Below, in pieces: positions 10,385 through 29,972 of a stretch of 44,730 nucleotides of DNA (positions within the stretch are counted from its first letter, which is position 1; every line of letters begins with the position of its first letter). The notes beneath the pieces were generated by a model. That model had not been told where the DNA came from and ran no database searches. It was given only the letters and a program-made list of their open reading frames with translations. The position numbers and the translations under genes were made by a program. This stretch comes from a virus, in the IMG/VR virus record IMGVR_UViG_3300043171_000105, one strand, 5' to 3'.

Positions 10385-10402
10385 TGTGGTACAGTGTGCT
10401 AC

Positions 10403-10853: not shown

Positions 10854-10874
10854 CAATCGAATAAGGTAACTATA

Positions 10875-11582: not shown

Positions 11583-11899
11583 TGGGTGTTCGTGAAAACA
11601 AAGTCGAACGCTACCTTGACACCGAGGTGAAGAAGATCGGGGGAATCACTCGTAAGTGGGTTAGCCCTGGGCGTGATGGTGTGATGGATCAAATCTGCTT
11701 TCTGAACCCTGAGTGGTTTGTCGAGGTTAAAACAACTGACGGGGTTCAGGAACCGCACCAGTATCGTGAAGCTCTACGATTGATAAATACCGGCGCGAGG
11801 GTTGCAATTGTTTATGGCAACAACGGTGTGGATAAATTCATCGAGTGGGTGAAGGTTCGCCGACATGATCAACCGCAGGTTCAGGTGGTGTTTAAGTGA
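11582..11899 (+). CDS. VRR-NUC domain nuclease
   Basis: 105 aa. GVMDQICFL...WFVEVKTTDG...Q fits the D...ExK core of VRR-NUC. Such nucleases are commonly found beside SNF2 helicases in phages. Confidence 0.7.
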   Translation: MGVRENKVERYLDTEVKKIGGITRKWVSPGRDGVMDQICFLNPEWFVEVKTTDGVQEPHQYREALRLINTGARVAIVYGNNGVDKFIEWVKVRRHDQPQVQVVFK

Positions 11900-14433: not shown

Positions 14434-14591
14434 TGTTTCTTACTCACCGCCACTGCATTATGTTGTGATGCTTTAATAGCACGACCTTGTTCTTCAGCTT
14501 TGGTACGCGCATCTTCGCCGGTGTAACATTTACCATTGTCACCGTATTTATATCCGGACTTACCATCATGTGTGCATTGTTTAACTGGCAT
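14430..14591 (-). CDS. Small conserved-looking ORF (53 aa), absent from the ORF track
   Basis: My own translation: MPVKQCTHDGKSGYKYGDNGKCYTGEDARTKAEEQGRAIKASQHNAVAVSKKH. Overlaps the upstream minus-strand gene by 11 nt and the convergent glycosyltransferase stop by 4 nt. Confidence 0.45.
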   Translation of the reverse strand: MPVKQCTHDGKSGYKYGDNGKCYTGEDARTKAEEQGRAIKASQHNAVAVSKKH

Positions 14592-14919
14592 GATTAAAAG
14601 TCTCAATTATCCAGTTGATGATAGCAACAACACCAACGCCAATAGCACCCCATTTCAGACACCACAGCATGAACCCCTGAACACCTTTACCAACGCGTGC
14701 GGCACCCTGGAAGTCTGTGGTGAGCTGCACAATTACACGGGTACCTTCGACTACTGATGCCACTGATGTAGTCAACGCGGTGATTGCATCAGTGTTTGTC
14801 TGCTGAACTTCGATGAGTTTATCGAACTTCTCAGCATCTCTTTTTTCATGTTGCTCGAACATCTCAACATGCTTATCGAATCTCTCACACAATTGAAATA
14901 ACCTTTCGTTAGTATCCAT
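14581..14919 (-). CDS. Membrane protein (coiled-coil N-terminus, C-terminal TM), lysis-associated
   Basis: FMLWCLKWGAIGVGVVAIINWII hydrophobic segment. Located in the lysis cluster. Confidence 0.6.
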   Translation of the reverse strand: MDTNERLFQLCERFDKHVEMFEQHEKRDAEKFDKLIEVQQTNTDAITALTTSVASVVEGTRVIVQLTTDFQGAARVGKGVQGFMLWCLKWGAIGVGVVAIINWIIETFNHAS

Positions 14920-14936
14920 TTCAAATCCCTTAATGT

Positions 14937-15299
14937 TTAAATTTTCTTAGCCTTGAATACACCTTCAGCAAACCCGCCACCGAAGTAAAACGCAATTATG
15001 GTGAACATAATCTCACCGACATAGAACTCAGACATGACTGCTTTGACTGCATCAATGTCACCGATGCCAGCTAACGTCAAACCGAGCACAAGCATGAATG
15101 AGAAGATGAACGTAGCACCGAACATCAACGCCAGGTATCGCTGTGCGATCTTAAACGGTGCGTAGGCTTGCATCAATTCAGTCTTCGCTTTGGTCTTTGC
15201 TTCGATCATCTCAGTGTCAGATGTATGGAATGAGTCAATCAAATCCATGCCTTTACTGATAACATCCCCGCTACCGAAAATCACGCTTAGTATTCCCAT
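14937..15299 (-). CDS. Holin-like multi-pass membrane protein
   Basis: 120 aa with hydrophobic segments (LALMFGATFIFSFMLVLGLTLAGI, IMFTIIAFYFGGGF), directly downstream of the endolysin gene. Confidence 0.6.
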   Translation of the reverse strand: MGILSVIFGSGDVISKGMDLIDSFHTSDTEMIEAKTKAKTELMQAYAPFKIAQRYLALMFGATFIFSFMLVLGLTLAGIGDIDAVKAVMSEFYVGEIMFTIIAFYFGGGFAEGVFKAKKI

Positions 15300-15326
15300 A
15301 TCAGTACCCTCTAATAAATAATTTAA

Positions 15327-15752
15327 TCATCGCTTATCCCACCTGGCAGGACCAATGGTTCTAGTATCGAAATGTACCCGATTGCTGTACCGACCCATGC
15401 CAAAGCGACCTGAGTATTCCTGCTCAAGATAATCAGCTACACGGTCAGGATCAATCTGCTCATTGGTGAATCGGTTGAACAGCTTGAAGTCAGCAGCACG
15501 ACCATAAATGTGCTGAGTCTTTGACGAGTACGGGACATAATCAGGATTATAATGTTTCTGCACTTTCTCATTGTGCTCCACGCACCGATTGGGACCAGTG
15601 ATCTTAATGCGAGCACTGATACCATCAACACCTTCAAAATGATGTACGCATTTCTGTAGAACTTCAACAAGCTCCACATCAACAGTGTCGAACCCGCAAC
15701 CACATTCACATGCGAATTCTGACCTGCTTAAATTTTTAGTTAAGTCACCCAT
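15327..15752 (-). CDS. Endolysin, peptidase M15 (zinc D-Ala-D-Ala carboxypeptidase-like) family
   Basis: FACECGCG, QHIYGRAADF (Hx6D) and RVHFD motifs. Confidence 0.8.
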   Translation of the reverse strand: MGDLTKNLSRSEFACECGCGFDTVDVELVEVLQKCVHHFEGVDGISARIKITGPNRCVEHNEKVQKHYNPDYVPYSSKTQHIYGRAADFKLFNRFTNEQIDPDRVADYLEQEYSGRFGMGRYSNRVHFDTRTIGPARWDKR

Positions 15753-16006
15753 TATAATTTAAGTAAAAACCCGCAATGGTTAAGTCCTGCTCCTTTTTCG
15801 GTTTTTGGAAATGAGCTAATATGCTCACAAAATATTACTGTTTCTTTTTCAGTTTCATATTCTAATCGCAAGATGCCAAGTGGGTCAGGGAGATCAACCT
15901 CCGGTTTAGCACTTTTCTCGTCGCTTAGAGATAGTCCGGCATAGAAACTGAAGTCTGCCATTACAGTGCAGGGTAGGAATAATAGGATGAATATATATTT
16001 ATACAT
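15752..16006 (-). CDS. Secreted or lipoprotein-like small protein (possible spanin component)
   Basis: N-terminal signal sequence MYKYIFILLFLPCTVMA with a Cys. Sits between the tail fibre and endolysin genes. Confidence 0.5.
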   Translation of the reverse strand: MYKYIFILLFLPCTVMADFSFYAGLSLSDEKSAKPEVDLPDPLGILRLEYETEKETVIFCEHISSFPKTEKGAGLNHCGFLLKL

Positions 16007-17343: not shown

Positions 17344-20300
17344 CTACTCACGGCTAGGACCAAATAGTAACTCTCGGGTGGTGAACTCTTCACCATCTTC
17401 AATGACATCATATAAGTGCTCCCCGGTGGACCACATTTGATTGACTCCAGGGACACCGATACCCGCAGCAATCAGCTTGCTCACATTCTTAATCTGACCG
17501 AGGGTGATGTCTTCATCAGTCATAATGTTCTTAACCAGACCCTTGCCTGACGTGATGCCTCGCTCCATCATCGCAGCTACAGGGGTGGAATTGTAACCAA
17601 AGTCTGTGAATGCACCACTGGCAACATCCCTTACAAAAGGCACAGATGTCACAGGGTATAATGCTACCATTGTCAAAAAATTACTCATTCTCTCATCTTC
17701 ACCCTCTGGTTCATCCAGCTCACCGCGCATGAACATCTCAAGGAATACAGGTATGGTGAACAAGAACATCGCTTTAGCAGCTGCTGATGTTGGTGAATAC
17801 ACACCAGATTTAGTACCTCTTATCAGATCCCTTGTCAAATTACCCAATGAGCTGAAGAACGTCATAAACATGGTGAACGTGGTGTGTATTTTAGACTGAC
17901 TACGCATGATGCGTGCCATATCTTTAGTGGCACCAGAGCCTTGAGTATTTTCTAAAGTCACATCAGCAAAGTGAACAGCCTTAACTTCGTCACCATTCTC
18001 ACTCAGATGTTTATCATAAGCTGCGTGCCATGTGGGTAAGTCAACCATGTACACCTGAATCAATGCAATGTGCTTCATTGACACTTCTTGCACAGCTGCC
18101 AGTGGACCTGTCTTCTTACTTAATCTATTCATTGCATTTCGGATTTCACGATCCATTGTTTTAACACGATGCGGCAGAACCTTAGAACGCTCGTTTGCAA
18201 AATCCCAACCTGACTGCATATTTTCACGACTGCCGAGCAACTTGCGTATTGTTCTCATGTACCACGCATTACCAACAACAGCTTGTACACCCTTAACAGT
18301 CGGACCCACACCCAACTCAGCAGCAGTTGTGAATATGCCGAACAGCTGCATGATACCTGTTGTTGCTTTGAACCCCATTACACCGAGTGTGGTGCCAAAA
18401 CGTAACCGACCGAATGCTTCATCGATGTATGTCTTCACCGGTTGCTGTCTTCCATCCTTAGCAATGTCGTTCAACCAAGGTTTCAATTCTTTAAACTCAG
18501 CCTCACCCATGACAGCAGTGATCGCACTTGCGACATCAGGTGACTGTATAAGCCTGTTTACCTGGCGCACAGCATCATGGTGAGTGATGTAATGGATAGT
18601 CTCGTTGAAATGATCAGGTACAACCTCCATGCTGAGGTAGATTCGATCATAGAAACCAGTACGTTCATTAGTTGCACCGGTGTTCACCGATGACTGGATG
18701 CTGGCTGTGTTGTTGAACATCGATTCAGTCTCAGCTTCACGCTTCTCAGCGTTCTTCTCAGCCTTGTGACTGCGTTTCGGTGAGTATTTGACCGGATAGT
18801 AACCACCTTTGAATGTACCATGTTCAGTCACAACAGGGGTCGCTACAACCTTTGGTGGCACCAACCCAGTAGTACGACGGTGAACCTCAGCGAGTTGTGG
18901 GTATAGAGTATCCATTTGATCCCAAATCAACTGCACCAGCTCCCAGTCACTCTTCGTCATGTGTGCCAGCACAGCCTGTAACTTAGGATTGTCAATTGTG
19001 ATCTCAGCTTCATTCTCAGGGTCAGCCCAACCTTCACCGAGTAGTAACTTTTTCAAGTTACCCTGGTTACCAGTATTCAATGCAACTGCGAGAACCTGAT
19101 GACCTTGTAAAGTATCATCGATCTCAGGGATAAAGACCTTCGTGTTATGGCGTGCTGCATCTTCTTTGCTTCGATTATTGATAGCTTTGATTACTGGTGT
19201 AGCTACGTCATCAACCAGATTCATCTTAGCATCGAGCGCATCGGTAAACGGCTGAGTCAATATATCATGACTCATACCAACACGATCACCACCGTCGAGC
19301 CATGATGCAAGGAATGGGATCTTGGTGAGCTGTGATGCCCACCGTTGAATATGTTCAGACAGTGTTGCTTTGCGTGCGTCATCGATACGACTGCGACTTT
19401 CTTTAGTCTCGAAGCGTGCATCCTGTTCACTGATATGATCAATCCAGTTAGCCTTCAGCTTCTGGAACTCAATCTCTTCACCGGCTACTTTCAATTTATT
19501 CGCGTACCGGGCAACATGCTCGATGTTCTTCACTGAATCATTGACACCCTGTAAATCTGAGAATGGTATATTTTTCCAATGGGTCACATAGGATTCATTC
19601 AGCACAGCATTTGACAGCACCAGACCATCACCGTCGTTTTCCATGCGATCCTTCATCCACGTGTTGATGCTTTCAACTTCCTTTAGTGTAGCTACTTTTC
19701 TGAACTCAAAGCGACCGAGGATCTTAGTGATCTGATCCATGTAGCCGTTCTCAGCTTTCATTATTTCTTCACGTACTTTCTTCTTGTTGTACCGCGCCAT
19801 GCGATCAACAATTTTAGTGGTCTCGTTCTTTGCACTGGTTGCAGCCATGCCGAGGTAATAATTCATCACCTGACGCATCTTGGCCTCAGCCGCACCTTCT
19901 TTGTTACCCTCAGCCAACATGCGTGCAGATTCCTGCGCTGCTCTGATCTCAGCTTTACGGTACTTGCCTGGGTGGTTCTCACGGAACGATAAGCGACCGA
20001 TACGTTCTTCAGCCATTGCTTTAATTGTCGCACGATCAACAGTCGGTGCAGTTGTACCTTTAGCCAACATCTTCAATTCGTGCAGTATCAACTTACCACG
20101 TTCTTCATTCTGCACCGCTTCATCAGCTTCACGTTCAATGGTGCCATCGGTGAGGATATCACCGTGACGTTCAACCATACGAGCTTCAGCATTGACTTCA
20201 GCTTGAGCTTTGATAGTTGGAGCAGTGATCAGATCGATCAACATCTCTGAGCCTGATCCATAACCGAAGAAAGCAGCAGCTTCATCAGGGTGTACACCCC

Positions 20301-23300
20301 GCATACCTTTGGCTGTCATACCACGCAGTTCAGGGGGGACGATGACGGACTTGACATCACGCTTATCAATTTTCTCTTCACCCACCATCGCTTTGACAGC
20401 GGCATGGTCGATCTTGAATTCACCGTCGCGCAACTCAGTACGAGCTTTATAAATTTGCTCTTTACTCAGCGAGTCGAGTTCTTCATCGATGATGTCCTGC
20501 TTCTCTTCTTTCCACCACTTCTGAGTTTGGCGTGTCAGTTGTTTGATGATCTTATTGCGCAGAGTTTCAGACTGTACGTCTTTCACTTTCTCCTGACGCT
20601 TCTGATAATCAGCGAACTCATCTTCAGTCATACCTGCCATCGCAGCATTAGTGAACATCGGTTCAACTCGTGCGCGTGACTCAGCAGCCTGGATCTGTTC
20701 TTCAGTAGCAATCAGTCGGTCGAACACCTGACGCATCTCATCGTCAAGGTTCACGTCAAGCTGTTTACGCAGAGACTGGTAGATTCGTACAAGCCAGCGT
20801 GCGAATGCTCTGAACGCGTTACGCAACTCGATAGACGGTGCTTTACCTTCCATCAGATAAGTCTCGAAGCCACGTGCGAACTGCTCATGAACAGCACGAC
20901 GGATTGCTGCATCTTTGTCCTTGTTATCAGTGGTATTGTTGTCAAGGAATGTGATTACATCATCGGCGGTGATTTCAACTTTCTTCTTGTCAGTACGCTC
21001 ACCTTGTTTCAATACGTCAAACTCACCATCAACATAAGTCGTCGCCTCCTTCGCCACATCCTCAGCGTTACGCTTGTACCAGTTATTGATCGATTGGAGC
21101 ATCTCGGTATCACCGTTGACCTCCATCTCGTACATGAAGTGGGCGAACTCGTGCAGGAACGTACTCAGATCAGCAGCTTCAGTCAGACGGATGACACTGT
21201 TTGATGGGTCATAGTAGCCGCGTGCGACTTGTTCACCGTCGGTGCGTTGACGGAAGATGCTGGGGTCAGTGGGGTCGAATGTACCAATGTTTTCAACTGA
21301 TTTAATATTGGTCTTACCGCTGTCGAAAATATGAACGTGAGCAGTACCTGATTCAATGTTCATTGTTTCAAATCGAGTTTCTGCATTTCTCAGAATGATA
21401 GAATCAAAACCCATTTCTTCAATGACTTCAGCAATCAGCTGTGATTGAATTAACTCTCCAGTTTCAGGGTCATCTGCATACTGGTAGTCTTCACTTTCAC
21501 GTAGAAGATTTTCGATGGTCTCAGGCGTAGCTTCACCACCAAGCTCAAATACCTGACCAGAAAGGTTAGCAGCATCAACATCGTGACGATTTGAAATAGT
21601 TTGAATCGCTTCAATTAATTCATTAGGAGTTTCAGCTTCAATATCCCATCGAGCTTCATCAATATCAACTTGATAGCTATCAATGTTTTCATTAACTTCT
21701 TCAATAGTGACATCGTTGTTATCAGCAACCTGTTCAATAGCATTATTCTGAATTTCTTCATTGTCAACAAACTCAATCCATTCAGCGTTCTCCCCGATGA
21801 CAAACGGGTTGTCAACACGCACGAACAGTTCCATTGTTTGCTCTTCGCCACCTGACAGTTCTTGACGCACTACGTTTCTAGCAAATTCCATTGTATCTTC
21901 ATCATAGAATTCTTCACCGAAACGATCTTTAGCTGCATCGATACCTTCTTCATCAATGACATCCTGAATATCATCAACAACCTGTTCAGCACGTTGTTCA
22001 ATACGGTTTGTTAAATCTGGACCTTCACCTGCGTAATTATCAGAAGCATCACTCTCAGAACTAGTGAAGTAATTGATAGCACCAAACTGACCTTCAAGAT
22101 TTCCGCGTAACGCATCGAACACATCGAAATCATGAGTCGTACCGTGAAATACTTTGACTACCACTGGTGTATCAGCTTTGAACACGTGATCATTAATATC
22201 TTCAGGTTCTATTACTTCACCATCGCCAGACCATTTTTTGAACTCTTCTGTTTCAGTCGATACAATTTCAACAGGTGCCTGAGCAAACACCAAATCTTCT
22301 TCCAACTTAGTAACAGTCGCACCTTCAAACGCGATGATCCAGTTCAACCCTTCAACCAGTACACCGTCATGACCTAACTCCATCAGAGCTTCACGACGCT
22401 GCATAACCTCTTCAGCAGTGAGATCACCCAGCACATCAGCGAACACCTCAGCGTCAATGACAAGCGGGTTCTCAAGGGTGATTTCATGCACACTTAACTC
22501 GTTGCCGTAACGCTCAGCATTGCCGACATCATCGAATGAGAGATAGTGACCCAGGTTACCGGCTGGTGTTGTGGTGTTCTGACCTAGAAGACTGTCATCA
22601 AACTGAGTAAAGTCTTTAGGGGATCGGTGGGTGACTGTTACTGTTTCGCCTGCTTTTGCCCGGTTGAACTCGGATAGAGCTGCTGCGTCATCTCTGATTT
22701 TCGTTTCTGTGATAAGGTCTTGCCGGGCTTGCTGCTGGTCAACTTCTTCACGTCGTCTTGTAATTTGCTCATCTGTTATTACTCCGGGTTGTGCGAACGG
22801 TCTACGCCCTGCAAATTCAGCATTAACCATTCGACCGATTGATTGTTTTAATCCTGGCGATACTTCAAAATTTTCAATTTCTTCTGATAATGCGACACTG
22901 ATGGCTTGACTTGGAAAATCAAAACCTAACCAATTATCACGATCAAGCGCGTTAATGAACTTACGATAATCTGGACCAAATTCATCAGCAGCTTCTAATA
23001 CTTCATTAACTTCAGCATCTTCAGGTAACACATCGAGAAATTTGTCACGAGCAGATTCAAATATCTCAGGTGCATCTTTGTACGCAGGCTGCTCCAACAC
23101 CATCTCACCTTCAAGTCGCGCACGCTCACCGGTGAGTGGACCTTCAATAGTCAAACCTGAATCTTGATAAACCTGCTGCACAGTCTTACCTTGGCGGCGT
23201 GCCTGAGCTGTTGCCCACGCTGGGACGATCTGCGCCATTGTTGATGCATTAGCCGCGTTCACTTGACCTGAGTCGATCAGCTGATCACGAACCTGATCAT

Positions 23301-25011
23301 AGATCTCTTGAGCTTCAACGTACTCGCTGGTGTTCTCCTGAGCTTCCTCCATCAAACCCTTGATGTAATTGTCAGTCTCATGCTGCACCTGCTCCTGGCG
23401 GAACGGTGAAGTGGTCTGATCACTCATTGTCATGCTGTCACGCAACTCGGTGAAGTGGTCAGTACCTGCAATGTCAGCAGCAAAATCAGCAACAGGCACC
23501 TGGACATCAACACCCAGCGCAGCAGCTTCACGCGCCTGTTCTGACAGCAGCTTCAACGCAGGGTCAGCTTCAATCTCTTCAATGGTCTTGCTCTGAAGGT
23601 ACAATGATGTCTGAACACCATCAATGAACACGTGAGTATTATTCTCACCGTCAGCTTCACCGACGAATTGTCTAAATGATTCTTTGTCGCGTTCACGGAG
23701 TTTTGAGTCACTGACATTCTCATTAAGAGTGTCGATCTTCAACTGCTCATTCTCAGACAACTTATCACGCTGCCGTGTTTCTGCGATGACACTGGCGGTT
23801 GTACCAACACCCGCGAATATCAATGATGCTTGAGCACCTTTCTTACCAGCTTCAAGTACACGTTCACCAGTTTCTTCACTGAATATAGTATCCAGTGCAG
23901 ATGATAAATCCTGTTCAGTGAATGACTCTTCATCGATGTACTTAGCCAGTTCACCACCGATGACATTCGTGAATTCCTGTGCACTCTCGGTGACAGCTTC
24001 AGTAGCCACTGCGATGCCGTAGTCTTTCATCAAGCGAGTGATCATCGCGCGACCAGTCTCAGTACCCAGTGCTCTCTTCACTTTACTCTTAATCACAGCA
24101 CGCATACCAGGTGTAACGGTACGACCCAACGCAGCTAATGATATGAACTCTAACCCTGCGTTAATTCCACCGACTAGCGTAGCTGCACCACCTGCAACCC
24201 GTGGTGATACATAATTACCTTGTTCATCTTGTAATACAATAAACTCATTGAATGCCAGACCAGCTTCTAAGTCGAAAGCAGCTTTAGCAACACCAACGCG
24301 ACCTGATATTTTCGCAGCAGGTACACCGAGCGCAATTGCACCAGGTACAGCACCAACGCCGCCGAATAACACACCCCCAGCAGCACCAGTAGCACCGGCG
24401 ACAACACCACCTGCTGCTGCATAACCCAAACCGGTACGCAGTATCTCAAACATAATCGGCAACTGTTCTGCTGCTGCAACTGGCGCACCAACGAAGAATC
24501 CATATTCATCTGCGCCTTGTTTGGTTAGATCTTCAATTTCTTTTAATCGTGCGATCTGCTCATCAGTGACAACCTCATTTGCACCGAGCGACTGATACAT
24601 CCTACTTAGGCCGATCTCTGACGACTCGACCATGAGTTGCCCTTTCTCGAATGACTCTGCTATATCAACCCCGTATTCACTTACAGTTTTTAACCCATCT
24701 TCAATTAGCTGCATGACACCAATATCATCCTGGGCAACAACAGCATTGTCGAAGTTACTGAGGTATTTAGATGTAGCGGGGCTGTTGGTTGTTATGTCAT
24801 TGAAATCAATACTGTCAAGGTTGAATTTGTGTTCAACGCTCTCATCGACTGCGAACGGGGGTACATCAGTGTCAATCGACAACTGCTGAGTTTTAGCATG
24901 TTCATCAGGATTGATCTTCAGTGCTTCACTAAAATTCGATTCTAACAGGTTATTCTCATCAACCTGTTGTTCAACTTCACCGAACTGAACCTTACTCAAA
25001 TCAAAGGTCAT
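17344..25011 (-). CDS. Giant internal virion / ejection protein (T7 gp16 position) of polyvalent type
   Basis: 2555-aa uninterrupted ORF between the gp15-like and fibre genes. HEFAH zincin motif, two HxS/T...Y...E modules, Gly-rich and C-terminal hydrophobic segments. Confidence 0.9.
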   Translation of the reverse strand: MTFDLSKVQFGEVEQQVDENNLLESNFSEALKINPDEHAKTQQLSIDTDVPPFAVDESVEHKFNLDSIDFNDITTNSPATSKYLSNFDNAVVAQDDIGVMQLIEDGLKTVSEYGVDIAESFEKGQLMVESSEIGLSRMYQSLGANEVVTDEQIARLKEIEDLTKQGADEYGFFVGAPVAAAEQLPIMFEILRTGLGYAAAGGVVAGATGAAGGVLFGGVGAVPGAIALGVPAAKISGRVGVAKAAFDLEAGLAFNEFIVLQDEQGNYVSPRVAGGAATLVGGINAGLEFISLAALGRTVTPGMRAVIKSKVKRALGTETGRAMITRLMKDYGIAVATEAVTESAQEFTNVIGGELAKYIDEESFTEQDLSSALDTIFSEETGERVLEAGKKGAQASLIFAGVGTTASVIAETRQRDKLSENEQLKIDTLNENVSDSKLRERDKESFRQFVGEADGENNTHVFIDGVQTSLYLQSKTIEEIEADPALKLLSEQAREAAALGVDVQVPVADFAADIAGTDHFTELRDSMTMSDQTTSPFRQEQVQHETDNYIKGLMEEAQENTSEYVEAQEIYDQVRDQLIDSGQVNAANASTMAQIVPAWATAQARRQGKTVQQVYQDSGLTIEGPLTGERARLEGEMVLEQPAYKDAPEIFESARDKFLDVLPEDAEVNEVLEAADEFGPDYRKFINALDRDNWLGFDFPSQAISVALSEEIENFEVSPGLKQSIGRMVNAEFAGRRPFAQPGVITDEQITRRREEVDQQQARQDLITETKIRDDAAALSEFNRAKAGETVTVTHRSPKDFTQFDDSLLGQNTTTPAGNLGHYLSFDDVGNAERYGNELSVHEITLENPLVIDAEVFADVLGDLTAEEVMQRREALMELGHDGVLVEGLNWIIAFEGATVTKLEEDLVFAQAPVEIVSTETEEFKKWSGDGEVIEPEDINDHVFKADTPVVVKVFHGTTHDFDVFDALRGNLEGQFGAINYFTSSESDASDNYAGEGPDLTNRIEQRAEQVVDDIQDVIDEEGIDAAKDRFGEEFYDEDTMEFARNVVRQELSGGEEQTMELFVRVDNPFVIGENAEWIEFVDNEEIQNNAIEQVADNNDVTIEEVNENIDSYQVDIDEARWDIEAETPNELIEAIQTISNRHDVDAANLSGQVFELGGEATPETIENLLRESEDYQYADDPETGELIQSQLIAEVIEEMGFDSIILRNAETRFETMNIESGTAHVHIFDSGKTNIKSVENIGTFDPTDPSIFRQRTDGEQVARGYYDPSNSVIRLTEAADLSTFLHEFAHFMYEMEVNGDTEMLQSINNWYKRNAEDVAKEATTYVDGEFDVLKQGERTDKKKVEITADDVITFLDNNTTDNKDKDAAIRRAVHEQFARGFETYLMEGKAPSIELRNAFRAFARWLVRIYQSLRKQLDVNLDDEMRQVFDRLIATEEQIQAAESRARVEPMFTNAAMAGMTEDEFADYQKRQEKVKDVQSETLRNKIIKQLTRQTQKWWKEEKQDIIDEELDSLSKEQIYKARTELRDGEFKIDHAAVKAMVGEEKIDKRDVKSVIVPPELRGMTAKGMRGVHPDEAAAFFGYGSGSEMLIDLITAPTIKAQAEVNAEARMVERHGDILTDGTIEREADEAVQNEERGKLILHELKMLAKGTTAPTVDRATIKAMAEERIGRLSFRENHPGKYRKAEIRAAQESARMLAEGNKEGAAEAKMRQVMNYYLGMAATSAKNETTKIVDRMARYNKKKVREEIMKAENGYMDQITKILGRFEFRKVATLKEVESINTWMKDRMENDGDGLVLSNAVLNESYVTHWKNIPFSDLQGVNDSVKNIEHVARYANKLKVAGEEIEFQKLKANWIDHISEQDARFETKESRSRIDDARKATLSEHIQRWASQLTKIPFLASWLDGGDRVGMSHDILTQPFTDALDAKMNLVDDVATPVIKAINNRSKEDAARHNTKVFIPEIDDTLQGHQVLAVALNTGNQGNLKKLLLGEGWADPENEAEITIDNPKLQAVLAHMTKSDWELVQLIWDQMDTLYPQLAEVHRRTTGLVPPKVVATPVVTEHGTFKGGYYPVKYSPKRSHKAEKNAEKREAETESMFNNTASIQSSVNTGATNERTGFYDRIYLSMEVVPDHFNETIHYITHHDAVRQVNRLIQSPDVASAITAVMGEAEFKELKPWLNDIAKDGRQQPVKTYIDEAFGRLRFGTTLGVMGFKATTGIMQLFGIFTTAAELGVGPTVKGVQAVVGNAWYMRTIRKLLGSRENMQSGWDFANERSKVLPHRVKTMDREIRNAMNRLSKKTGPLAAVQEVSMKHIALIQVYMVDLPTWHAAYDKHLSENGDEVKAVHFADVTLENTQGSGATKDMARIMRSQSKIHTTFTMFMTFFSSLGNLTRDLIRGTKSGVYSPTSAAAKAMFLFTIPVFLEMFMRGELDEPEGEDERMSNFLTMVALYPVTSVPFVRDVASGAFTDFGYNSTPVAAMMERGITSGKGLVKNIMTDEDITLGQIKNVSKLIAAGIGVPGVNQMWSTGEHLYDVIEDGEEFTTRELLFGPSRE

Positions 25012-26666
25012 TATTTTGTCGCCTGTCTGTATGTACTCAGAATAGTGTCAATTGTCACAGGTTGATCACTTAATTTCAATAAATCCTTGACTTGAGTAAA
25101 CGACTCTTCACCATGTGCATCAACAAATTTACTCAACTCAGCAACCTGTTCAGGGCGTGCAGTCTTCAGATCAATATCAACGTCAGGCATGAGGTAATCA
25201 AACCCACCTAGTGAACGCTCAATTACGAATCTGCGACTATAATCAGCCAACAGTTCATCGATTTCACTGGGTGCAAGTTTACCACCCTTAATCTCTTCAG
25301 CATCTTCAATCGCACCCTGTACTGTGGTCATAAGCGTTTGTACTTGTGCTGATTTTGCCTTGTTACCTTTCCATGTTTTCTTCTTGCCGAAGAACTGTTC
25401 AGCAATCAAAGTGACCTTGTTGGCAGGGGTCTGTACCGATGTGACACTCTGACCCCTCTTTGCCTTGTCCACTGCCGACCGTAACTTAGATAAGTCAGCA
25501 GGTTTGAGCACATGAGTCCATTCAGCAGGGTTGACCTGCATCAATTGTTTACGTGGAAGACTTAGTAACTCATTGAATTTAATCTGATCGGTGGTCATGT
25601 GTTTACCAGCCAACAGATTGTTACGCTGCTGTGATGACATACCTTCCCATGCTTCAGCATTATTAGCTTTGAATGATTCAGTAGTACCACCACCGTTAAA
25701 ATGCTCTATACCCTGATCGTAAAACTCAGCTTCAATTTCTTTCTCAGCTTGAGTTTTACGGGTGTACTGTGTCATCGCTTCAGACATTGTTTTCTTACGC
25801 AGGTCAAGATCTTCAATCTTGTTGACTTCTTCAATGATGTCAGCTTTATTCTCATGCTGACCCACCAGCTTGCCAGCGGTGAGAGTCGCAGCACGAGCGT
25901 CAGATTCAGTCTTCTCAATCTTCGCTTTCTTCTCGACTAACCCTTCCAGCTTCACTTTGTCCGGGCCTTCTAATCGTTCACCGTAGGATTCCAGTGCCTG
26001 CTTACCCTCAGCAGCACTACTTTGTGTAGCAGCCTCGACAGTGGATTTAGCGAACGATGATTCAAATGTTTGCAGCTTCTCAGCTTTAGCTTCAGGACTG
26101 TCGCCCATCAAGTCAGACGCATCGATAATAGCCTGACGACCGAGTACATTCTGCACTTTTAATCGATCAGGTTCATTCCAGTATAGTGATGCGTTTTCAA
26201 TTGAGTTCTCAACCTGTGCCTCAATGGTGGACACTTCCCAGGCTTTGAGACCTTTGGCAGAATGTCTGCTGATGTCAACCTGACCACGCGTGATATGAGC
26301 GTCAGCAGCGCGGTCGAACATCTGTTTAGCTTGAACACCAAGGGTTTCCCCGTATTTCATCTTCAGATCATCCAGAGCCTTTGTAGCGGCTGCTGAATTA
26401 TCATAAGCATCACGACCTTGAGAGTTAAAGTACCCACTGTCAGGGTTGAAGAACATATCATTTTTATCACGCTCAAAATTAACGACAGCTTCTTCAGCTG
26501 AGGTGGTGTCAACACGCTGTTTGAGCTGTAAACCTGATCGAACCACGTCGGTCAGCCCTTTAGCAATAGCACCACCGAACGCACCTGGTGGAGCATCTTG
26601 AGCAGTCGGCTGTGATACTACTTGAGTCTGTACTTGTTCAGGTTGGTACGTTGCTATTTTTGGCAT
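25011..26666 (-). CDS. Internal virion protein (gp15 position)
   Basis: 551 aa, Ala/Lys/Glu-rich and helical. Assigned by synteny. Confidence 0.65.
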   Translation of the reverse strand: MPKIATYQPEQVQTQVVSQPTAQDAPPGAFGGAIAKGLTDVVRSGLQLKQRVDTTSAEEAVVNFERDKNDMFFNPDSGYFNSQGRDAYDNSAAATKALDDLKMKYGETLGVQAKQMFDRAADAHITRGQVDISRHSAKGLKAWEVSTIEAQVENSIENASLYWNEPDRLKVQNVLGRQAIIDASDLMGDSPEAKAEKLQTFESSFAKSTVEAATQSSAAEGKQALESYGERLEGPDKVKLEGLVEKKAKIEKTESDARAATLTAGKLVGQHENKADIIEEVNKIEDLDLRKKTMSEAMTQYTRKTQAEKEIEAEFYDQGIEHFNGGGTTESFKANNAEAWEGMSSQQRNNLLAGKHMTTDQIKFNELLSLPRKQLMQVNPAEWTHVLKPADLSKLRSAVDKAKRGQSVTSVQTPANKVTLIAEQFFGKKKTWKGNKAKSAQVQTLMTTVQGAIEDAEEIKGGKLAPSEIDELLADYSRRFVIERSLGGFDYLMPDVDIDLKTARPEQVAELSKFVDAHGEESFTQVKDLLKLSDQPVTIDTILSTYRQATK

Positions 26667-26669
26667 GGT

Positions 26670-27194
26670 TTATAGACTCAGTGGTGCTGGGTTTTTCGTT
26701 ATACCTGCGCTATTCGGTGTAAACCATTTATCAGCCACACCTGTGTCTAATACATCAGCAGTGCCACCGAGTATTGTACCAAACGCTTGCTGTTGACCAG
26801 CTGATTCAGCGAATGCACCTTGCTGACGGGTCAAACCTGCACCAGTCTGCAATGATTCAACCTGTAATTGAGTATTACTGCGAATACGCAGTGCGTCAGC
26901 TTCACCGAGTGTGAGTGTATCTTCCTGCAATTGTAGAGCTGAACCTGACTCTAACTCAACCCCGGCAGCACCTAGCTGTGCTCTCTGTTTAGACAACAAC
27001 TCAGCGGTTTTACGGCGTTGGATATTCTCAGCTTCAGTACCAGCGCGTCGTGTTTCCTGAGCTTGATTCTCAGCTACACGGGCATTATATTCGGCAGTAC
27101 CTTTTCTGAATTTACCTTGAGCACGCTGACCTTGATATGCCATAGCTGTTGACGCTACAGTCATGACAGCCATTATTGTTGTTGGTTCACACAT
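26670..27194 (-). CDS. Internal virion protein (gp14 position)
   Basis: 174 aa. N-terminal hydrophobic helix followed by a Gln/Ala-rich coiled region. Assigned by synteny. Confidence 0.6.
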   Translation of the reverse strand: MCEPTTIMAVMTVASTAMAYQGQRAQGKFRKGTAEYNARVAENQAQETRRAGTEAENIQRRKTAELLSKQRAQLGAAGVELESGSALQLQEDTLTLGEADALRIRSNTQLQVESLQTGAGLTRQQGAFAESAGQQQAFGTILGGTADVLDTGVADKWFTPNSAGITKNPAPLSL

Positions 27195-27664
27195 CAGTCG
27201 GATCTCTCAAGATAGAATTTATGGAACAACTCACCCTCGCACCCGTACTCAACAGGGTCACCAAGTGTGAATCCGATCCGTTTAAGCCATTTGATGCTGA
27301 CCTTATTCTCAGTGTGTACATAGTTGAACAACCTCGGACATACAGTCAGCATTTCGTTAATTATTTCAGGAACCTGTATTAAAAAATGACGCTTGTATTT
27401 CAAGGCACCATCAGTGCCAAGCAACCACGGAACCCCTGTACCCGTTAATATATCACGAATTACCAGCCCTAGCACTACACACGGCACATCGTTCACGACA
27501 ACGACAACTGTGTAATCTGATATCTCACACCCATCTAACAGCGCACTAAGTGGTGTGAGATGACCTGAAGCCCATATCTCATCAACATCAGCCTGGCGCA
27601 TATCAGCTGCAACAGCTTCGATAAGCTCACGAGTGGGCTTGAGAAATTTAACTCCCGCCGACAT
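27194..27664 (-). CDS. gp13-position protein, possibly acetyltransferase-fold (T7 gp13/DUF2833-like)
   Basis: 156 aa. Synteny plus a general resemblance recalled from memory; the function call is weak. Confidence 0.45.
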   Translation of the reverse strand: MSAGVKFLKPTRELIEAVAADMRQADVDEIWASGHLTPLSALLDGCEISDYTVVVVVNDVPCVVLGLVIRDILTGTGVPWLLGTDGALKYKRHFLIQVPEIINEMLTVCPRLFNYVHTENKVSIKWLKRIGFTLGDPVEYGCEGELFHKFYLERSD

Positions 27665-29972
27665 CTACGCTCGGAATCACTGATAAGATTGCCATTGGCA
27701 ACGGTGCTCGTTGTTCAATGCGAACTCCGCCGCCTTTAGACCATAATGGTTCAATGACAACTTCTTGTTTGTATGTTCTCAATGCAATAGCATCATAAGC
27801 ATCAGCTTCAAATCGAGGTTTAATTTCATGGAATATGACATCTTGACCACTGGTTGCATCTTGGCGTGGTCCAACGAACCCACCACGTGTACCTTCAACT
27901 TCAATGAATACTTTAGAAACAGACACTGAACGAGCCTTCAATGAGTCAGAGGGTGATGCTATGTCAATATCAAGCATCTCGATAACAGGTGTATATGGTA
28001 GACCGACATGCACCTTAGACGCTTCACGATCCAGTGTGATAGAACCACCTGATACAGTCTTACCTTCAACAACATAACCATCAGCAAGCACAGCTACAGC
28101 CTCACCTTCAAGGTGATCAAGTCCACTGATGACCGTAGCCGGTGACCCGTTATAAGACAACCCTGAATCAACATAAAAAGCATCTTCAGCGACCTTACTC
28201 TCACGCTTCTCAAGACGTTCAACGTATCGTACAGTGTTACCGTCAATTGTTCTTTTAACTATCGCATACAACGCATCACGACCGTCTTCACTGATCGTTG
28301 CTATAGATTCAAACTCACCATCAGTAACATGGTGGTGCCAACCCCACACCTGGTGCTCACGTTGGTAAGTAAGACCGAGCAGTACCCCATCATTACGAAC
28401 ACACCATAAGATTCCGTACGGCTCGTTAGAATAAGCCATTTCAATAACTTCATGATCTTCAAACAGATGCTCAGACATCAATGATAAATCGTTACCTGTA
28501 TATTTATCATTGCTGAACTCATACCCCAGGTCACGAATGCGTGCACCTTTTTCCTGTAGATACAACACGGTACTGTTAATGATCACAGGTTTAACCCATG
28601 ATGCGCCATTGTATGATTGAGGACGGACACCGATGGTTGATGGGGTGAGAACTCTGTCTTGACCTTCACTCACCAGCCACTCGCCGCCTGATGTAAGTAA
28701 TATCAGCGAATCTAAAGATATTATGTGTCGGATTTCATTTACCTGTTGCGCTGCAATAGTAAACGTCACAGCATCATCATCGCGTGCAGGTTTAGATGTT
28801 CGCAATGAATTGAAATTATTAACCTGGGTGGTATATGTTGCTTGAGGTTCATTATTCGTATTAGCGAATATTTGACGTTGCTGATAATAATTTACAGCAG
28901 CAGGTTTGTTATCTGCGCCAGCGAAGGATTGTCTGTCTTCAGGAGGGGCATCACTGGTGATAGGTGCGATGTTATAATCATCAAAAGAATTATTGCTAGA
29001 ATCACCAATCCACCCGTACACATCAGTATTGTTCGATGGGTCTTTATAAATACGATAATAATCAGCACCACTGACCGCACCCCATTCAATGCGCACACCA
29101 CCAGTGACTGATAACGAATCAGTGATAACAGATGCTGCTGATGATGCTAGGGATTCTATCCCTGACTCATCAACTGCTGTCACTACATAAGTGTAAGTTT
29201 TTTCAAAATCACCAAAGCCAGAACCAACTGTTGTCGCACTGTTCTCACGAGTAGCAGTACCACCTGATGTGTACGCAGTGTGACCTGTAGAGTCTTCACC
29301 ATCGAGTTCAATGTGATCGGCATCCACTACTGTGATCCTGAATAACCTATCATTAACCTCAACCATTCCTACAACATTTTCAATAGTGGTTAGGTTACCT
29401 GTTACAAAACCATGCCCCACAGCAGTCACAACAGCTGGGTTAGCCTGTGAAATACCAGTTATAACTTTGACTGTCGCACCTGAAAAAGCCGGTGCAGTGA
29501 CAGATGATGAATAGTCAATATCAGTTAATGTCCAGTTATCATCAGCAAGGCGATTCAGATTCGCAGGGTCATGGTCAGGATGAACAATGGTCATTACATC
29601 TGCTGATTGAGTGAAACCTAATCTCGATAACTGTACTTCAGTGTAGGGGGTGACCAATTCAAAAAGAGCTGGACCAGCACCATCGAGTACATACCCTCCG
29701 TTTTTAATGACTCGCATTTTCAAATGCTCAAAATGCAATATGTACGTTTGCTCAGTGCTAAAACTGAATGGTATGAGTTTACCTACTTTTGAATGGTCGT
29801 CAGATTCACCGATGAACTTGAACCCGGGGCGTGAATAAACACCACCCTGCGCACGTACGAAGAAATTCTCACAGAGGTTAAGACCTGTTGAATATTTAAC
29901 GATATCAGCACGAGACTGTAAAGATGGTGCAATCTCACCAGATGTAAAACTGCGTTGGATAGTCTGTGGCAC
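27648..29972 (-). CDS. Tail tubular protein B / nozzle-like protein
   Basis: 774 aa directly after the gp11 homologue. N-terminus SFTSGEIAPSLQSRADIVKYSTGL...RPG parallels the T7 gp12 N-terminus. Confidence 0.7.
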   Translation of the reverse strand: MPQTIQRSFTSGEIAPSLQSRADIVKYSTGLNLCENFFVRAQGGVYSRPGFKFIGESDDHSKVGKLIPFSFSTEQTYILHFEHLKMRVIKNGGYVLDGAGPALFELVTPYTEVQLSRLGFTQSADVMTIVHPDHDPANLNRLADDNWTLTDIDYSSSVTAPAFSGATVKVITGISQANPAVVTAVGHGFVTGNLTTIENVVGMVEVNDRLFRITVVDADHIELDGEDSTGHTAYTSGGTATRENSATTVGSGFGDFEKTYTYVVTAVDESGIESLASSAASVITDSLSVTGGVRIEWGAVSGADYYRIYKDPSNNTDVYGWIGDSSNNSFDDYNIAPITSDAPPEDRQSFAGADNKPAAVNYYQQRQIFANTNNEPQATYTTQVNNFNSLRTSKPARDDDAVTFTIAAQQVNEIRHIISLDSLILLTSGGEWLVSEGQDRVLTPSTIGVRPQSYNGASWVKPVIINSTVLYLQEKGARIRDLGYEFSNDKYTGNDLSLMSEHLFEDHEVIEMAYSNEPYGILWCVRNDGVLLGLTYQREHQVWGWHHHVTDGEFESIATISEDGRDALYAIVKRTIDGNTVRYVERLEKRESKVAEDAFYVDSGLSYNGSPATVISGLDHLEGEAVAVLADGYVVEGKTVSGGSITLDREASKVHVGLPYTPVIEMLDIDIASPSDSLKARSVSVSKVFIEVEGTRGGFVGPRQDATSGQDVIFHEIKPRFEADAYDAIALRTYKQEVVIEPLWSKGGGVRIEQRAPLPMAILSVIPSVDVGGS

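What the first reader, a model, noticed from the sequence alone, without database searches (positions are those of the whole stretch)
21292..22659. Tandem pair of H-Y-E ADP-ribosyltransferase-like modules inside the giant protein
Two segments share the same ordered motif string. Module 1 (aa ~785-904): VTHRS ... GHYLSF ... HEITLENPLVID ... ELGHDGVLVEG ... IIAFE. Module 2 (aa ~946-1240): VFHGTTHDFDVFD ... GAINYFTSS ... MELFVRVDNPFVIG ... EMGFDSIILRN ... HVHIFD, with an acidic insertion of roughly 140 residues. The pattern of H-G-[ST], then aromatic Y-[FL]-[ST], then a Glu on a beta-strand is the catalytic signature of PARP / diphtheria-toxin-class (H-Y-E) ARTs. It also matches my recollection of the ART-PolyVal family. 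Module 1 (HRS) may be degenerate or regulatory. A virion-delivered ART would act like T4 Alt, but this one is of a different clade and is fused to a core protein.
Basis: inference. Interest (0 to 1): 0.75.

Follow-up and report, generated by a model that had tools for sequence, protein, structure and literature searches.

The report
Two ADP-ribosyltransferase domains in ejection protein
A short-tailed phage's 2,555-residue internal virion protein carries two copies of a known but biochemically untested ADP-ribosyltransferase domain (ART-PolyVal) in a swappable cargo slot, probably so that a ready-made host-modifying enzyme enters the cell with the DNA; it is a well-supported new member of a described class.

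Summary
All ten motif strings are at the stated residues of the 2,555-aa ORF 17344-25011(-).

**Family.** Both modules belong to Pfam ART-PolyVal (PF18760).
- Module 2 passes the Pfam cut-off.
- Module 1 fails it alone. Profile-profile comparison rescues it (98.8%, E 7.5e-17), as does a confident model whose best solved match is the anti-CRISPR ADP-ribosyltransferase AcrIF11, followed by tankyrases.

- The family signature is H-Y-D, not H-Y-E. The conserved acid is the Asp of G-[HYF]-D (D882, D1203).
- The "acidic insertion" is two helical inserts. They are conserved in a subfamily of at least 1,427 protein clusters, mostly giant proteins.
- Module 1 has lost family-invariant residues (Gly after His, C-terminal Q-I-K-S) but is conserved in relatives. 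It is probably a modified or non-catalytic partner.

**Context.**
- The host protein sits at the T7 gp16 position.
- The modules occupy a variable slot (aa ~704-1252). Cultured relatives leave this slot empty or put a GNAT there.
- An invariant HExxH motif follows the slot.

**Verdict.** This is a new member of a known kind, of modest interest. Catalysis and target remain untested.

The parts
17344..25011 (-). Giant ORF of 2,555 aa. It is a polyvalent internal virion / ejection protein at the T7 gp16 position.
   Evidence: ORF list and translation. On the minus strand the gene order is portal, capsid, tail tube A/B, gp13-like, gp14-like, a 551-aa ORF, the giant, then tail fibre. Hydrophobic segments lie at aa 198-233, 276-295 and 2409-2428.
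24679..24927 (-). LPD22 domain (aa 29-111), a domain of unknown function typical of polyvalent proteins.
   Evidence: Pfam PF18834, 56.6 bits against a cut-off of 28.6. Also present in the three Vibrio phage orthologues.
21256..22902 (-). Variable cargo slot (aa ~704-1252) between the conserved N-terminal and C-terminal parts of the giant protein.
   Evidence: BLASTP to the orthologues of Vibrio phages MZH0603, 1.185.O and PS25B.1 aligns only aa 3-~700 and aa 1252-2555. 1.185.O has a GNAT in the slot, and none of the three has an ART.
22306..22650 (-). Module 1 (aa 788-902): a compact, divergent ART-PolyVal domain. Key residues are H795 (with R796 in place of the family Gly), Y823, N848-P849 and D882. 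The C-terminal Q-I-K-S motif is missing.
   Evidence: Pfam 17-18 bits. hhalign 98.8%, E 7.5e-17. A family HMM built without the giant protein gives 38.8 bits. The AlphaFold2 model has pLDDT 86.7 and pTM 0.80. Foldseek finds AcrIF11 at E 1.6e-4, tankyrases at about 0.01-0.1, and 44 viral models at E <= 1e-3, many named ART-PolyVal. It is conserved in L005 and L006.
21277..22176 (-). Module 2 (aa 946-1245): an elaborated ART-PolyVal domain. Key residues are H956-G957-T958, Y981, N1068-P1069, D1203, H1225 and N1235-I-K1237-S.
   Evidence: Pfam 38.1 bits alone. There are 1,427 representative clusters at E <= 1e-3, almost all spanning query 150-487. With the inserts spliced out it aligns end to end to the compact domain. 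Scores against the family HMM built without the giant protein are 44.9 and 57.7 bits.
21847..22059 (-). Helical insert A of module 2 (aa ~985-1055), between strands 2 and 3. It opens with the near-invariant D988, N992-Y993, G997 and D999.
   Evidence: Secondary structure of the model. Conservation: D988 156/160, N992 157/162, Y993 160/162, D999 161/161. Composition is 31% D+E.
21442..21789 (-). Helical acidic insert B of module 2 (aa ~1075-1190), between strand 4 and the helix before strand 5.
   Evidence: Model helices 315-408 of the 491-aa query. Composition is 28% D+E and 2.6% K+R. The insert is present across the family.
20779..21186 (-). Zincin-like motif region (aa ~1276-1411) at the start of the conserved C-terminal part: H1287-E1288-x-x-H1291, then E1376 and E1383.
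   Evidence: H1287, E1288 and H1291 are 45/45, E1376 is 55/55 and E1383 is 54/55 in homologues. No Pfam model matches it. The metallopeptidase reading is an inference from the motif and from PMC5512222.
17347..21258 (-). Conserved C-terminal ~1,300 aa. It is shared with Bordetella phage BPP-1 Bbp10 and with many podophage giant proteins.
   Evidence: PHROG 9880, 945 bits, aa 1263-2538. tblastn hits to BPP-1 and to Pseudomonas, Xanthomonas, Caulobacter and cyanophage proteins. 42-52 of the 154 proteins that carry module 2 share this part.
25011..27664 (-). Upstream internal-virion genes: a 551-aa ORF at the gp15 position, a gp14-like ORF and a gp13-like ORF.
   Evidence: PHROG 418 and 308, 'internal virion protein'. 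Pfam T7_gp14 at 32.8 bits; the T7 Gp13 match (21.2 bits) is below its cut-off of 25. The stop codon of the 551-aa ORF overlaps the giant's ATG by one base.

Best explanation
The window is an essentially complete genome of a BPP-1-like / T7-like short-tailed phage.

**The carrier.** The 2,555-aa protein is the phage's large ejection protein, the gp16 equivalent. It would be packed in the capsid core and expelled into the host envelope and cytoplasm ahead of the DNA. It has three parts:
- a conserved N-terminal part (LPD22 plus Gly/Ala-rich hydrophobic segments);
- a conserved C-terminal part that opens with an invariant HExxH...E motif;
- a variable cargo slot between them.

**The cargo.** In this phage the slot holds two ART-PolyVal domains.
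- Module 2 keeps every family-invariant residue and belongs to a very large subfamily with two conserved helical inserts. I take it to be the active NAD+-dependent mono-ADP-ribosyltransferase. It would modify a host macromolecule in the first seconds of infection, before any phage gene is expressed. The helical inserts would serve as the target-recognition surface, as proposed for the helical region of AcrIF11.
- Module 1 keeps H, Y and D but has lost the Gly after His and the C-terminal Q-I-K-S. Relatives nevertheless conserve it. It is probably an altered-specificity or non-catalytic partner.
- The adjacent HExxH domain may cut the cargo free.

**Shown versus inferred.**
- Shown: family membership, residue conservation, the ART fold of module 1, synteny, and the modularity of the slot.
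- Inferred: packaging, ejection, catalysis, the target, and proteolytic release.
For: **Family**
- Pfam ART-PolyVal scores above its cut-off.
- hhalign gives 98.8% for module 1 and 99.0-99.6% for module 2.
- A family HMM built without the giant protein gives 38.8 bits for module 1 and 44.9 / 57.7 bits for module 2.
- A profile led by module 1 retrieves 194 proteins; the 120 listed all carry PF18760.

**Fold**
- The module 1 model has pLDDT 86.7.
- Its solved neighbours are AcrIF11, tankyrase PARP domains and MbcT.
- Its viral neighbours are ART-PolyVal models.
- Its weak PDB sequence matches are dominated by PARP4, diphtheria toxin, PARP3/10 and Tpt1.

**Active-site residues**
- H956, G957, Y981, D1203 and K1237 are near-invariant across 160 or more family members.

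**Delivery**
- The gene order is T7-like, with gp13- and gp14-like genes immediately upstream.
- The protein has hydrophobic segments.

**Modularity**
- Only the flanks align to cultured relatives, and one relative has a GNAT in the slot.
- L007 has compact ART, then a GNAT-like segment (identified by eye from a motif), then module 2.
- Module 2 plus the C-terminal part recurs in 42-52 of the 154 proteins that carry module 2.
- A compact ART followed by an elaborated ART recurs in at least 9 other proteins.

**Published framework**
- Polyvalent proteins are predicted to be virion-packaged and injected. ARTs are their commonest protein-modifying domain, with up to 12 copies in one protein (PMC5512222; PMC9503650).
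Against: - No ART-PolyVal domain has, to my knowledge, been assayed. The literature search found the name in only two papers, versions of one study.
- The module 2 model gave no significant match to any solved structure (best E 1.7). Its fold assignment therefore rests on sequence profiles alone.
- The MSA used for the module 1 model consisted of ART-PolyVal domains, which biases that model toward the family fold.
- The third catalytic residue is unresolved. A weak profile alignment to PARP4 (E 0.013) places the canonical catalytic Glu four residues before the strand-6 aromatic. That position is variable in compact domains (E 30, Q 14, V 14, T 14 of 117). By my own manual register, it is W891 in module 1 and an invariant His (H1225, 158/160) in module 2. 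Ordinary Glu/Asp-assisted chemistry cannot be assumed.
- Module 1 lacks three family-invariant residues.
- Packaging and ejection are inferred from synteny. No sequence match to T7 gp16 or to any solved ejection protein was found.
Confidence: 0.6

Rival explanations
1. Both modules are catalytically dead ART-fold domains. They would serve as structural or packing elements of the pre-ejectosome, or as NAD+/ADP-ribose-binding sensors, and not as transferases.
For: - No acidic residue is conserved at the position aligned to the PARP / diphtheria-toxin catalytic Glu.
- Module 1 lacks the Gly after His and the Q-I-K-S motif.
- The acidic helical inserts (28-31% D+E) could simply be DNA-mimicking or charge-balancing filler inside a DNA-packed capsid.
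- The module 2 model has no structural match.
Against: - H, G, Y, D and K are near-invariant across more than 150 clusters at 50% identity or less. That pattern is what a ligand-binding or catalytic site looks like, not a packing element.
- Cultured relatives lack the slot content altogether, so it is not needed for virion structure.
- AcrIF11, which has the atypical H-F-H-D set, is a proven enzyme (bioRxiv 10.1101/2024.08.26.609590).
Confidence: 0.15
2. Module 2 is an NAD+-consuming enzyme of a different chemistry. It might be an NADase or NAD+ phosphorylase like MbcT or RES toxins. It might instead ADP-ribosylate nucleic acid, as DarT does, or act on RNA 2'-phosphate, as Tpt1/KptA does.
For: - Among the structural neighbours of module 1 are MbcT (E 0.04) and NatT (E 0.2).
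- Tpt1 appears among the weak sequence matches (E 1.5).
- An invariant His (H1225) at the canonical Glu position, together with the conserved R1213 and K1237, would suit a phosphate or nucleic-acid substrate.
Against: - These matches are weaker than those to AcrIF11 and the tankyrases.
- The defining tetrads of Tpt1 and the RES domain (recalled from my own knowledge) were not looked for here. The family-invariant residues found give no sign of them.
- The authors who defined the family group it with protein-modifying toxin ARTs of the HYD2 clade (PMC5512222).
Confidence: 0.15
3. The two modules work as one unit. Module 1 would be a pseudo-enzyme that regulates, inhibits in the capsid, or targets module 2. 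This would be analogous to paired active and inactive domains in other toxin systems.
For: - A compact ART immediately upstream of an elaborated ART recurs in at least 9 other representative proteins.
- The closest compact relatives of module 1 are themselves degenerate. P0104 has R in place of the His and lacks Q-I-K-S.
- Module 1 keeps a lineage-specific conserved signature (H-R-[SA], GHY, GHDG, GLNW, AFE) at 50-69% identity.
Against: - Orthologues P0008, P0010 and P0020 carry module 2 without a detectable module 1 homologue, so module 2 does not need it.
- In other tandem cases the compact copy is fully canonical (P0013 and P0076).
- No interaction evidence exists.
Confidence: 0.1

Closest known systems
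ART-PolyVal domains of phage and conjugative-element polyvalent proteins (Pfam PF18760; prototype Roseovarius Plymouth podovirus 1 virion RNA polymerase; Iyer et al. 2017, PMC5512222)
   Same: - Same Pfam family and the same H / Y / D signature.
- Same setting: a multidomain virion protein with LPD and zincin-like neighbours.
- Multiple copies in one protein are already described.
   Different: - The carrier is a gp16-position ejection protein of a BPP-1-like podophage, not an N4-like RNA polymerase.
- Module 2 belongs to an elaborated subfamily with two conserved helical inserts. In my scans the 140-position Pfam model matched it only in separate stretches.
- Module 1 is a divergent branch that lacks Gly14 and Q-I-K-S.
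AcrIF11 (PDB 6KYF), a phage and plasmid anti-CRISPR mono-ADP-ribosyltransferase that modifies Csy1 N250
   Same: - It is the best solved structural neighbour of module 1 (Foldseek E 1.6e-4, TM 0.47).
- It is small, has the same order of strands, and has a variable helical region inserted at the same place.
- Its key residues are non-canonical (H-F-H-D).
- It is a phage counter-defence enzyme.
   Different: - No detectable sequence relationship (HMMER -1.4 bits; hhalign below 1%).
- It is a free-standing early gene product, not part of a virion protein.
- Its catalytic D115 lies in the hairpin after the strand equivalent to GxDG. The aligned residue in module 1 (E887) is not conserved.
T4 Alt (virion-packaged ART that modifies host RNA polymerase)
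   Same: The proposed logic is the same: an ART made late, packed in the head, and injected with the DNA to act before phage gene expression.
   Different: - Alt belongs to the R-S-E (Alt/VIP2) clade with a different active site (PMC5512222).
- Alt is a separate head protein of a myovirus, not a domain of the ejection channel protein.
T7 gp16 / Bordetella phage BPP-1 Bbp10 / cyanophage A4 pre-ejectosome proteins
   Same: - Same gene position, after gp14- and gp15-like genes and before the tail fibre.
- The C-terminal ~1,300 aa is homologous to BPP-1 Bbp10 (28% identity, E 4e-103).
- An A4 ejection protein also carries enzymatic domains, a transglycosylase and a metallopeptidase (PMC12002296).
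   Different: - No sequence match to T7 gp16 or to any solved chain.
- No N-terminal lytic transglycosylase was detected.
- The ART cargo is absent from BPP-1 and from the nearest cultured Vibrio phages.
PARP / diphtheria-toxin H-Y-E ARTs
   Same: - The H-G-[ST] strand 1.
- The aromatic-F-[ST] strand 2 followed by A..Y.
- G-[YH]-D-[GS]-[VI], which resembles the 'G-Y-D-S-V' of PARP4 in the one weak alignment seen.
- Tankyrase catalytic domains are structural neighbours.
   Different: - No conserved Glu at the catalytic position.
- No regulatory or acceptor-loop elements.
- Sequence matches are only marginal (E 0.013-2).

Membership tests
ART-PolyVal (Pfam PF18760) | Score against the Pfam model above the gathering cut-off (31.2 bits): module 2 | tested here: met
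   38.1 bits for module 2 alone and 50.7 bits for the 456-aa segment.
ART-PolyVal (Pfam PF18760) | Score against the Pfam model above the gathering cut-off: module 1 | tested here: not met
   17-18 bits, E 0.005-0.01. Homology is nonetheless supported by hhalign (98.8%, E 7.5e-17) and by a family HMM built without the giant protein (38.8 bits).
ART-PolyVal (Pfam PF18760) | His in strand 1 (Y-H-G-T) | tested here: met
   H956-G957-T958 in module 2. H795 in module 2's partner, module 1, is followed by R796-S797 (the Gly is lost). The family column is H in 120/121 and G in 114/121.
ART-PolyVal (Pfam PF18760) | Aromatic Tyr in strand 2 (G-F-Y-F-[TS]) | tested here: met
   Y823 and Y981. The family column is Y 69, F 34, W 17 of 122. 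In the module 2 subfamily it is Y in 158/161.
ART-PolyVal (Pfam PF18760) | Asp at strand 5 (G-[YH]-D-G) | tested here: met
   D882 and D1203. The Asp is found in 115/119 compact domains and 160/161 module 2 relatives. It immediately precedes the fifth strand in both models. Equating it with the published 'D in strand 5' is my inference.
ART-PolyVal (Pfam PF18760) | C-terminal F-x-P-x-Q-I-K-S motif (Q 119/119, K 118/119 in compact domains) | tested here: inconclusive
   Module 2 keeps N1235-I1236-K1237-S1238. Module 1 has AFEGATVTK and does not align to this part of the profile.
ART-PolyVal (Pfam PF18760) | ADP-ribosyltransferase fold | tested here: inconclusive
   Module 1 is supported: AcrIF11, tankyrases and 44 viral ART-PolyVal-type models. 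Module 2 has no significant hit.
ART-PolyVal (Pfam PF18760) | NAD+-dependent ADP-ribosyl transfer | not testable with these tools
   Needs biochemistry. I found no published assay for any family member.
Polyvalent proteins (Iyer et al. 2017) | A large multidomain protein in a phage late / structural operon that combines LPD domains, effector enzymes and a zincin-like peptidase | tested here: met
   LPD22 at 56.6 bits, two ARTs, and an invariant HExxH...E motif, within the structural gene block. The peptidase is seen by motif only, not by a Pfam match.
PARP / diphtheria-toxin H-Y-E ARTs | Catalytic Glu at the start of the strand aligned to PARP 'E-Y-I-V-Y' | tested here: not met
   In my own register the aligned position is W891 in module 1 and H1225 in module 2. 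It is variable in the compact family. The underlying alignment is weak (E 0.013).
T4 Alt / VIP2 (R-S-E) ARTs | Arg, Ser-x-Ser and Glu-x-Glu active-site motifs | tested here: not met
   Strand 1 carries His, not Arg. No Pfam or PDB match to this clade.
AcrIF11 anti-CRISPR ARTs | Sequence relationship to AcrIF11 | tested here: not met
   HMMER -1.4 bits; hhalign probability below 1%. The similarity is structural only.
T7 gp16-type ejection protein | Position after the gp14- and gp15-like genes, large size, and hydrophobic segments | tested here: met
T7 gp16-type ejection protein | Presence in virions and ejection into the host | not testable with these tools
   Needs virion proteomics or cryo-EM.

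The most novel reading that the evidence does not exclude
The module 2 type would be a distinct, very abundant subfamily of ejected counter-defence enzymes, with three features.
- It holds an invariant His (H1225) at the position of the PARP / diphtheria-toxin catalytic Glu.
- Its conserved helical inserts (D988, N992-Y993, D999, R1213, F1214) form a dedicated target-recognition or second catalytic surface.
- It is often paired with a degenerate compact ART.

On this reading, podophages would deliver a pre-made, AcrIF11-like ADP-ribosylating anti-defence activity, with unusual chemistry, through the ejection channel protein itself.
Probability: 0.2. Interest if true: 0.65.

Novelty: new member of a known kind. 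Interest (0 to 1): 0.35.

Why it matters
If the domains are active, this phage injects a host-modifying enzyme as part of the protein that builds its DNA channel. The enzyme could then act before any transcription.

The slot that holds it behaves as an exchangeable cassette. Relatives carry an ART, a GNAT or nothing there, so the slot gives a natural experiment on what such cargo buys the phage.

The module 2 subfamily is large: at least 1,427 clusters at 50% identity, mostly in proteins of 2,000-4,800 aa. It has never been assayed. A single biochemical study would therefore annotate thousands of viral giant proteins.

None of this changes the current picture. It fits the polyvalent-protein model published in 2017.

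Tried and rejected
- **Direct BLASTP of module 1 against module 2.** Nothing found. I rejected a recent internal duplication.
- **megablast of the gene against GenBank phages.** No match. Only protein-level relatives exist.
- **Word-indexed search for module 1 plus its upstream region (aa 700-940).** No hits. Homologues appeared only with full HMMER and in IMG/VR.
- **phmmer of the region and of the N- and C-terminal parts against PDB sequences.** Nothing significant.
- **Foldseek of the 491-aa two-module model against PDB.** Nothing significant. In that model module 1 had pLDDT below 50 because it had no alignment depth.
- **Treating AcrIF11 as a sequence relative.** Rejected.
- **The Foldseek hit to the cyanophage A4 pre-ejectosome chain** (E 0.057). 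Too weak to use.
- **E887 as an AcrIF11-D115-like catalytic acid in module 1.** Rejected because it is Q in L006 and N in P0151.
Rejected on strand position and conservation.
- **Coordinates of the models.** They were not available to me, so I could not measure active-site geometry.
Full report
**1. What is there**

The window is essentially one podophage genome.
- A replication block on the plus strand holds an exonuclease, a Gp2.5-like SSB, a DNA polymerase and a helicase. A primase lies on the minus strand.
- A T7-like structural block lies on the minus strand. In order it holds terminase, portal (35125-36801), major capsid protein (33105-34103) and tail tube A and B. These are followed by gp13-like and gp14-like internal virion proteins, a 551-aa ORF, the giant ORF 17344-25011, and a tail fibre.
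- The giant ORF encodes 2,555 aa, and the finding's coordinates map to aa 785-1240.

**2. Are the two modules real ART-like domains?**

- Pfam gives ART-PolyVal (PF18760) at 50.7 bits for the segment and 38.1 bits for module 2 alone, against a cut-off of 31.2. Module 1 alone reaches only 17-18 bits.
- Direct BLASTP between the modules finds nothing.
- I searched aa 770-1260 with HMMER against 1.84 billion representative proteins. This gave 1,427 hits at E <= 1e-3 and 907 at E <= 1e-10. Nearly all span query 150-487, which is the whole of module 2 including both helical inserts. Most hits lie in proteins of 2,000-4,800 aa.
- Module 1 has one close relative in that library (P0151, 50% identity). 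Its more distant relatives (P0104, P0063, P0097, P0101) have matching segments that are full-length Pfam ART-PolyVal domains at 51-76 bits.
- Profile-profile comparisons:
  - The module 1 lineage against 16 compact ART-PolyVal domains: 98.8%, E 7.5e-17, 115 columns.
  - Compact domains against the module 2 family: 99.0%, but over strands 1-2 only.
- With inserts aa 1001-1051 and 1081-1185 removed, module 2 aligns end to end with the compact domain (99.55%, E 2e-23, 123 columns). I chose the splice points from the model, so this step is guided.
- A profile headed by module 1 retrieved 194 proteins from the 5.8-billion-sequence collection. All 120 listed carry PF18760.
- An HMM built from those proteins, without the giant, scores module 1 at 38.8 bits and module 2 at 44.9 bits (57.7 bits when spliced).

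**3. Fold**

- The two-module model had mean pLDDT 62. Module 2 was at 70-90 and module 1 below 50. It found nothing in the PDB.
- Module 1 modelled with 17 compact homologues gave pLDDT 86.7 and pTM 0.80, with seven strands.
- Foldseek of that model against the PDB:
  - The best hit is 6KYF (E 1.6e-4, TM 0.47).
  - Many tankyrase PARP domains follow (E 0.009-0.1), then the NAD+-phosphorylase toxin MbcT.
- 6KYF is AcrIF11, a proven mono-ADP-ribosyltransferase with key residues H-F-H-D (bioRxiv 10.1101/2024.08.26.609590; identity of the chain confirmed).
- Against viral models there were 44 hits at E <= 1e-3. The named ones are ART-PolyVal proteins, an N4-like virion RNA polymerase and PARP-like proteins.
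- The compact-domain profile's weak PDB sequence hits are PARP4 (E 0.013), diphtheria toxin (0.11), PARP3, PARP10 and Tpt1.
- AcrIF11 is not related at sequence level.
- Caveat: the module 1 model was built on an alignment of the family it then matches.

**4. Active site**

- The authors who defined the family describe H in strand 1, Y in strand 2 and D in strand 5 (PMC5512222).
- In the module 2 family, the following are near-invariant:
  - strands 1-2: H956, G957, F965, G977, Y981;
  - insert A and strands 3-4: D988, N992, Y993, D999, G1054, P1069;
  - strand 5 onward: G1201, D1203, F1214, H1225, K1237.
- In compact domains H13, G14, F22, N67-P68, D101, Q128 and K130 are near-invariant.
- The only invariant Asp is in G-[HYF]-D-[GS]. 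It directly precedes the fifth strand of both models. I take it to be the published 'D'. The triads are then H795/Y823/D882 and H956/Y981/D1203.
E1061 is E in 90 and D in 40 of 157 sequences.
- One open point remains. The PARP4 alignment pairs G-Y-D-S-V with G-Y-D-G-V, and E-F-V-V-Y..Q-V-K with the family's x-V-V-F.P.Q-I-K. This puts the classical catalytic Glu four residues before the conserved Phe.
  - That column is variable in compact domains (E 30, Q 14, V 14, T 14 of 117).
  - By my own manual register it is W891 in module 1 and the invariant H1225 in module 2.
  - The alignment is weak, so I treat this as unresolved.
- Module 1 has R796 for the Gly after His and lacks Q-I-K-S.
- Its orthologues in two uncultivated viral genomes conserve H-R-[SA], G-H-Y, N-P, G-H-D-G, G-L-N-W and A-F-E. 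These are L005 (69% identity over this region) and L006 (50%).
- Module 1 is therefore maintained, not decaying.

**5. Context and modularity**

- The nearest cultured relatives are Vibrio phages MZH0603, 1.185.O, PS25B.1 and 1.021.A-C (55-62% identity). The C-terminal half is shared with Bordetella phage BPP-1 Bbp10 and with many Pseudomonas, Xanthomonas, Caulobacter and cyanobacterial podophages.
- Against the three Vibrio phage orthologues, only aa 3-~700 and aa 1252-2555 align.
- None of the three has an ART. 1.185.O has a GNAT in the slot, and MZH0603 has essentially no slot.
- Among the 154 retrieved proteins with module 2, 42-52 also carry the giant's C-terminal part. Three of them (P0008, P0010, P0020) share the N-terminal part, module 2 and the C-terminal part but show no detectable module 1 homologue.
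- A compact ART directly upstream of an elaborated ART recurs in at least nine others.
- L007 has compact ART, then a GNAT-like segment (identified by eye from a motif), then module 2.
- Immediately after the slot, H1287-E1288-x-x-H1291, E1376 and E1383 are invariant in 45-55 homologues. This is a zincin-like signature that no Pfam model recognised.
- A free-standing 661-aa protein (P0001) combines module 2 with the same HExxH region in a non-structural neighbourhood.
- Hydrophobic segments lie at aa 198-233, 276-295 and 2409-2428.

**6. Interpretation**

- The best reading is a polyvalent ejection protein whose exchangeable middle slot carries an ART-PolyVal pair.
- Module 2 is the likely enzyme, and module 1 an altered or non-catalytic companion.
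- The HExxH domain is a candidate for releasing the cargo.
- Delivery with the DNA, catalysis and the target are all inferences. They rest on synteny, on conservation and on the 2017 polyvalent-protein model.
- The AcrIF11 resemblance makes a counter-defence target attractive but does not show it.

**7. Verdict**

It is wrong on the catalytic Glu and on the nature of the insertion.
- This is a new member of a known kind.
- The aspects worth a specialist's attention are the size and conservation of the insert-bearing subfamily, the uncertain third catalytic residue, and the cassette-like slot.

Noticed in passing
window 21256-22902 (aa 704-1252); L001, L002, L003 giant ORFs: The middle of the giant protein is an exchangeable slot. 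Vibrio phage 1.185.O has a GNAT acetyltransferase there, PS25B.1 has about 320 aa of unknown content, and MZH0603 has almost nothing. 1.185.O also has a second insertion of about 150 aa further downstream.
   Followed up: partly
window 20779-21186 (aa 1276-1411): An invariant HExxH motif plus two invariant Glu residues (E1376, E1383) lies directly after module 2. No Pfam model matches it. It may be an unrecognised branch of the polyvalent-protein metallopeptidase.
   Followed up: partly
L007 (IMGVR_UViG_3300033148_002070), ORF 9131-15781, aa ~350-560: In this relative's giant protein a compact ART (GYDGIIF...FVAFDADQV) is followed by a segment that looks like a GNAT by eye (HRDKGIGTEVM) and then by module 2. 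This matches the ART-GNAT pairing noted by Iyer et al. 2017. The GNAT call was not checked with a profile search.
   Followed up: no
L004 (Logan SRR24908204 contig), gene 10001-11986 (P0001): A free-standing 661-aa protein carries module 2 with its inserts plus the HExxH region. Its neighbours are non-structural genes (YkuD, radical SAM, EVE, a DNA methylase and the R.HinP1I restriction enzyme). The ART-plus-HExxH unit therefore also exists outside ejection proteins.
   Followed up: no
window 25011-26666 (-): The 551-aa ORF at the gp15 position matches PHROG families annotated 'endolysin' over its first ~230 aa (82 bits) and has no Pfam hit. The cell-wall-degrading activity may sit here and not in the gp16-position protein. 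Its stop codon overlaps the giant's ATG by one base.
   Followed up: no
window 27648-29972 (-), aa 178-242: The tail tubular protein B homologue carries an inserted domain that matches the ubiquitin-activating enzyme E1 FCCH domain (Pfam 35.7 bits against a cut-off of 29.5). The same annotation appears in the Vibrio phage relatives.
   Followed up: no
window 21337-21339 (H1225) and 22012-22047 (aa 988-999): The module 2 subfamily has invariant residues with no counterpart in compact ART-PolyVal domains. They are D988, N992-Y993 and D999 at the start of insert A, R1213, F1214 and M1217 in the loop before the last strands, and H1225.
   Followed up: partly
P0015 (4,443 aa): One representative protein matched the query in 12 separate stretches. 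This is reminiscent of the 12-copy ART protein of a Pseudomonas prophage mentioned by Iyer et al. 2017.
   Followed up: no
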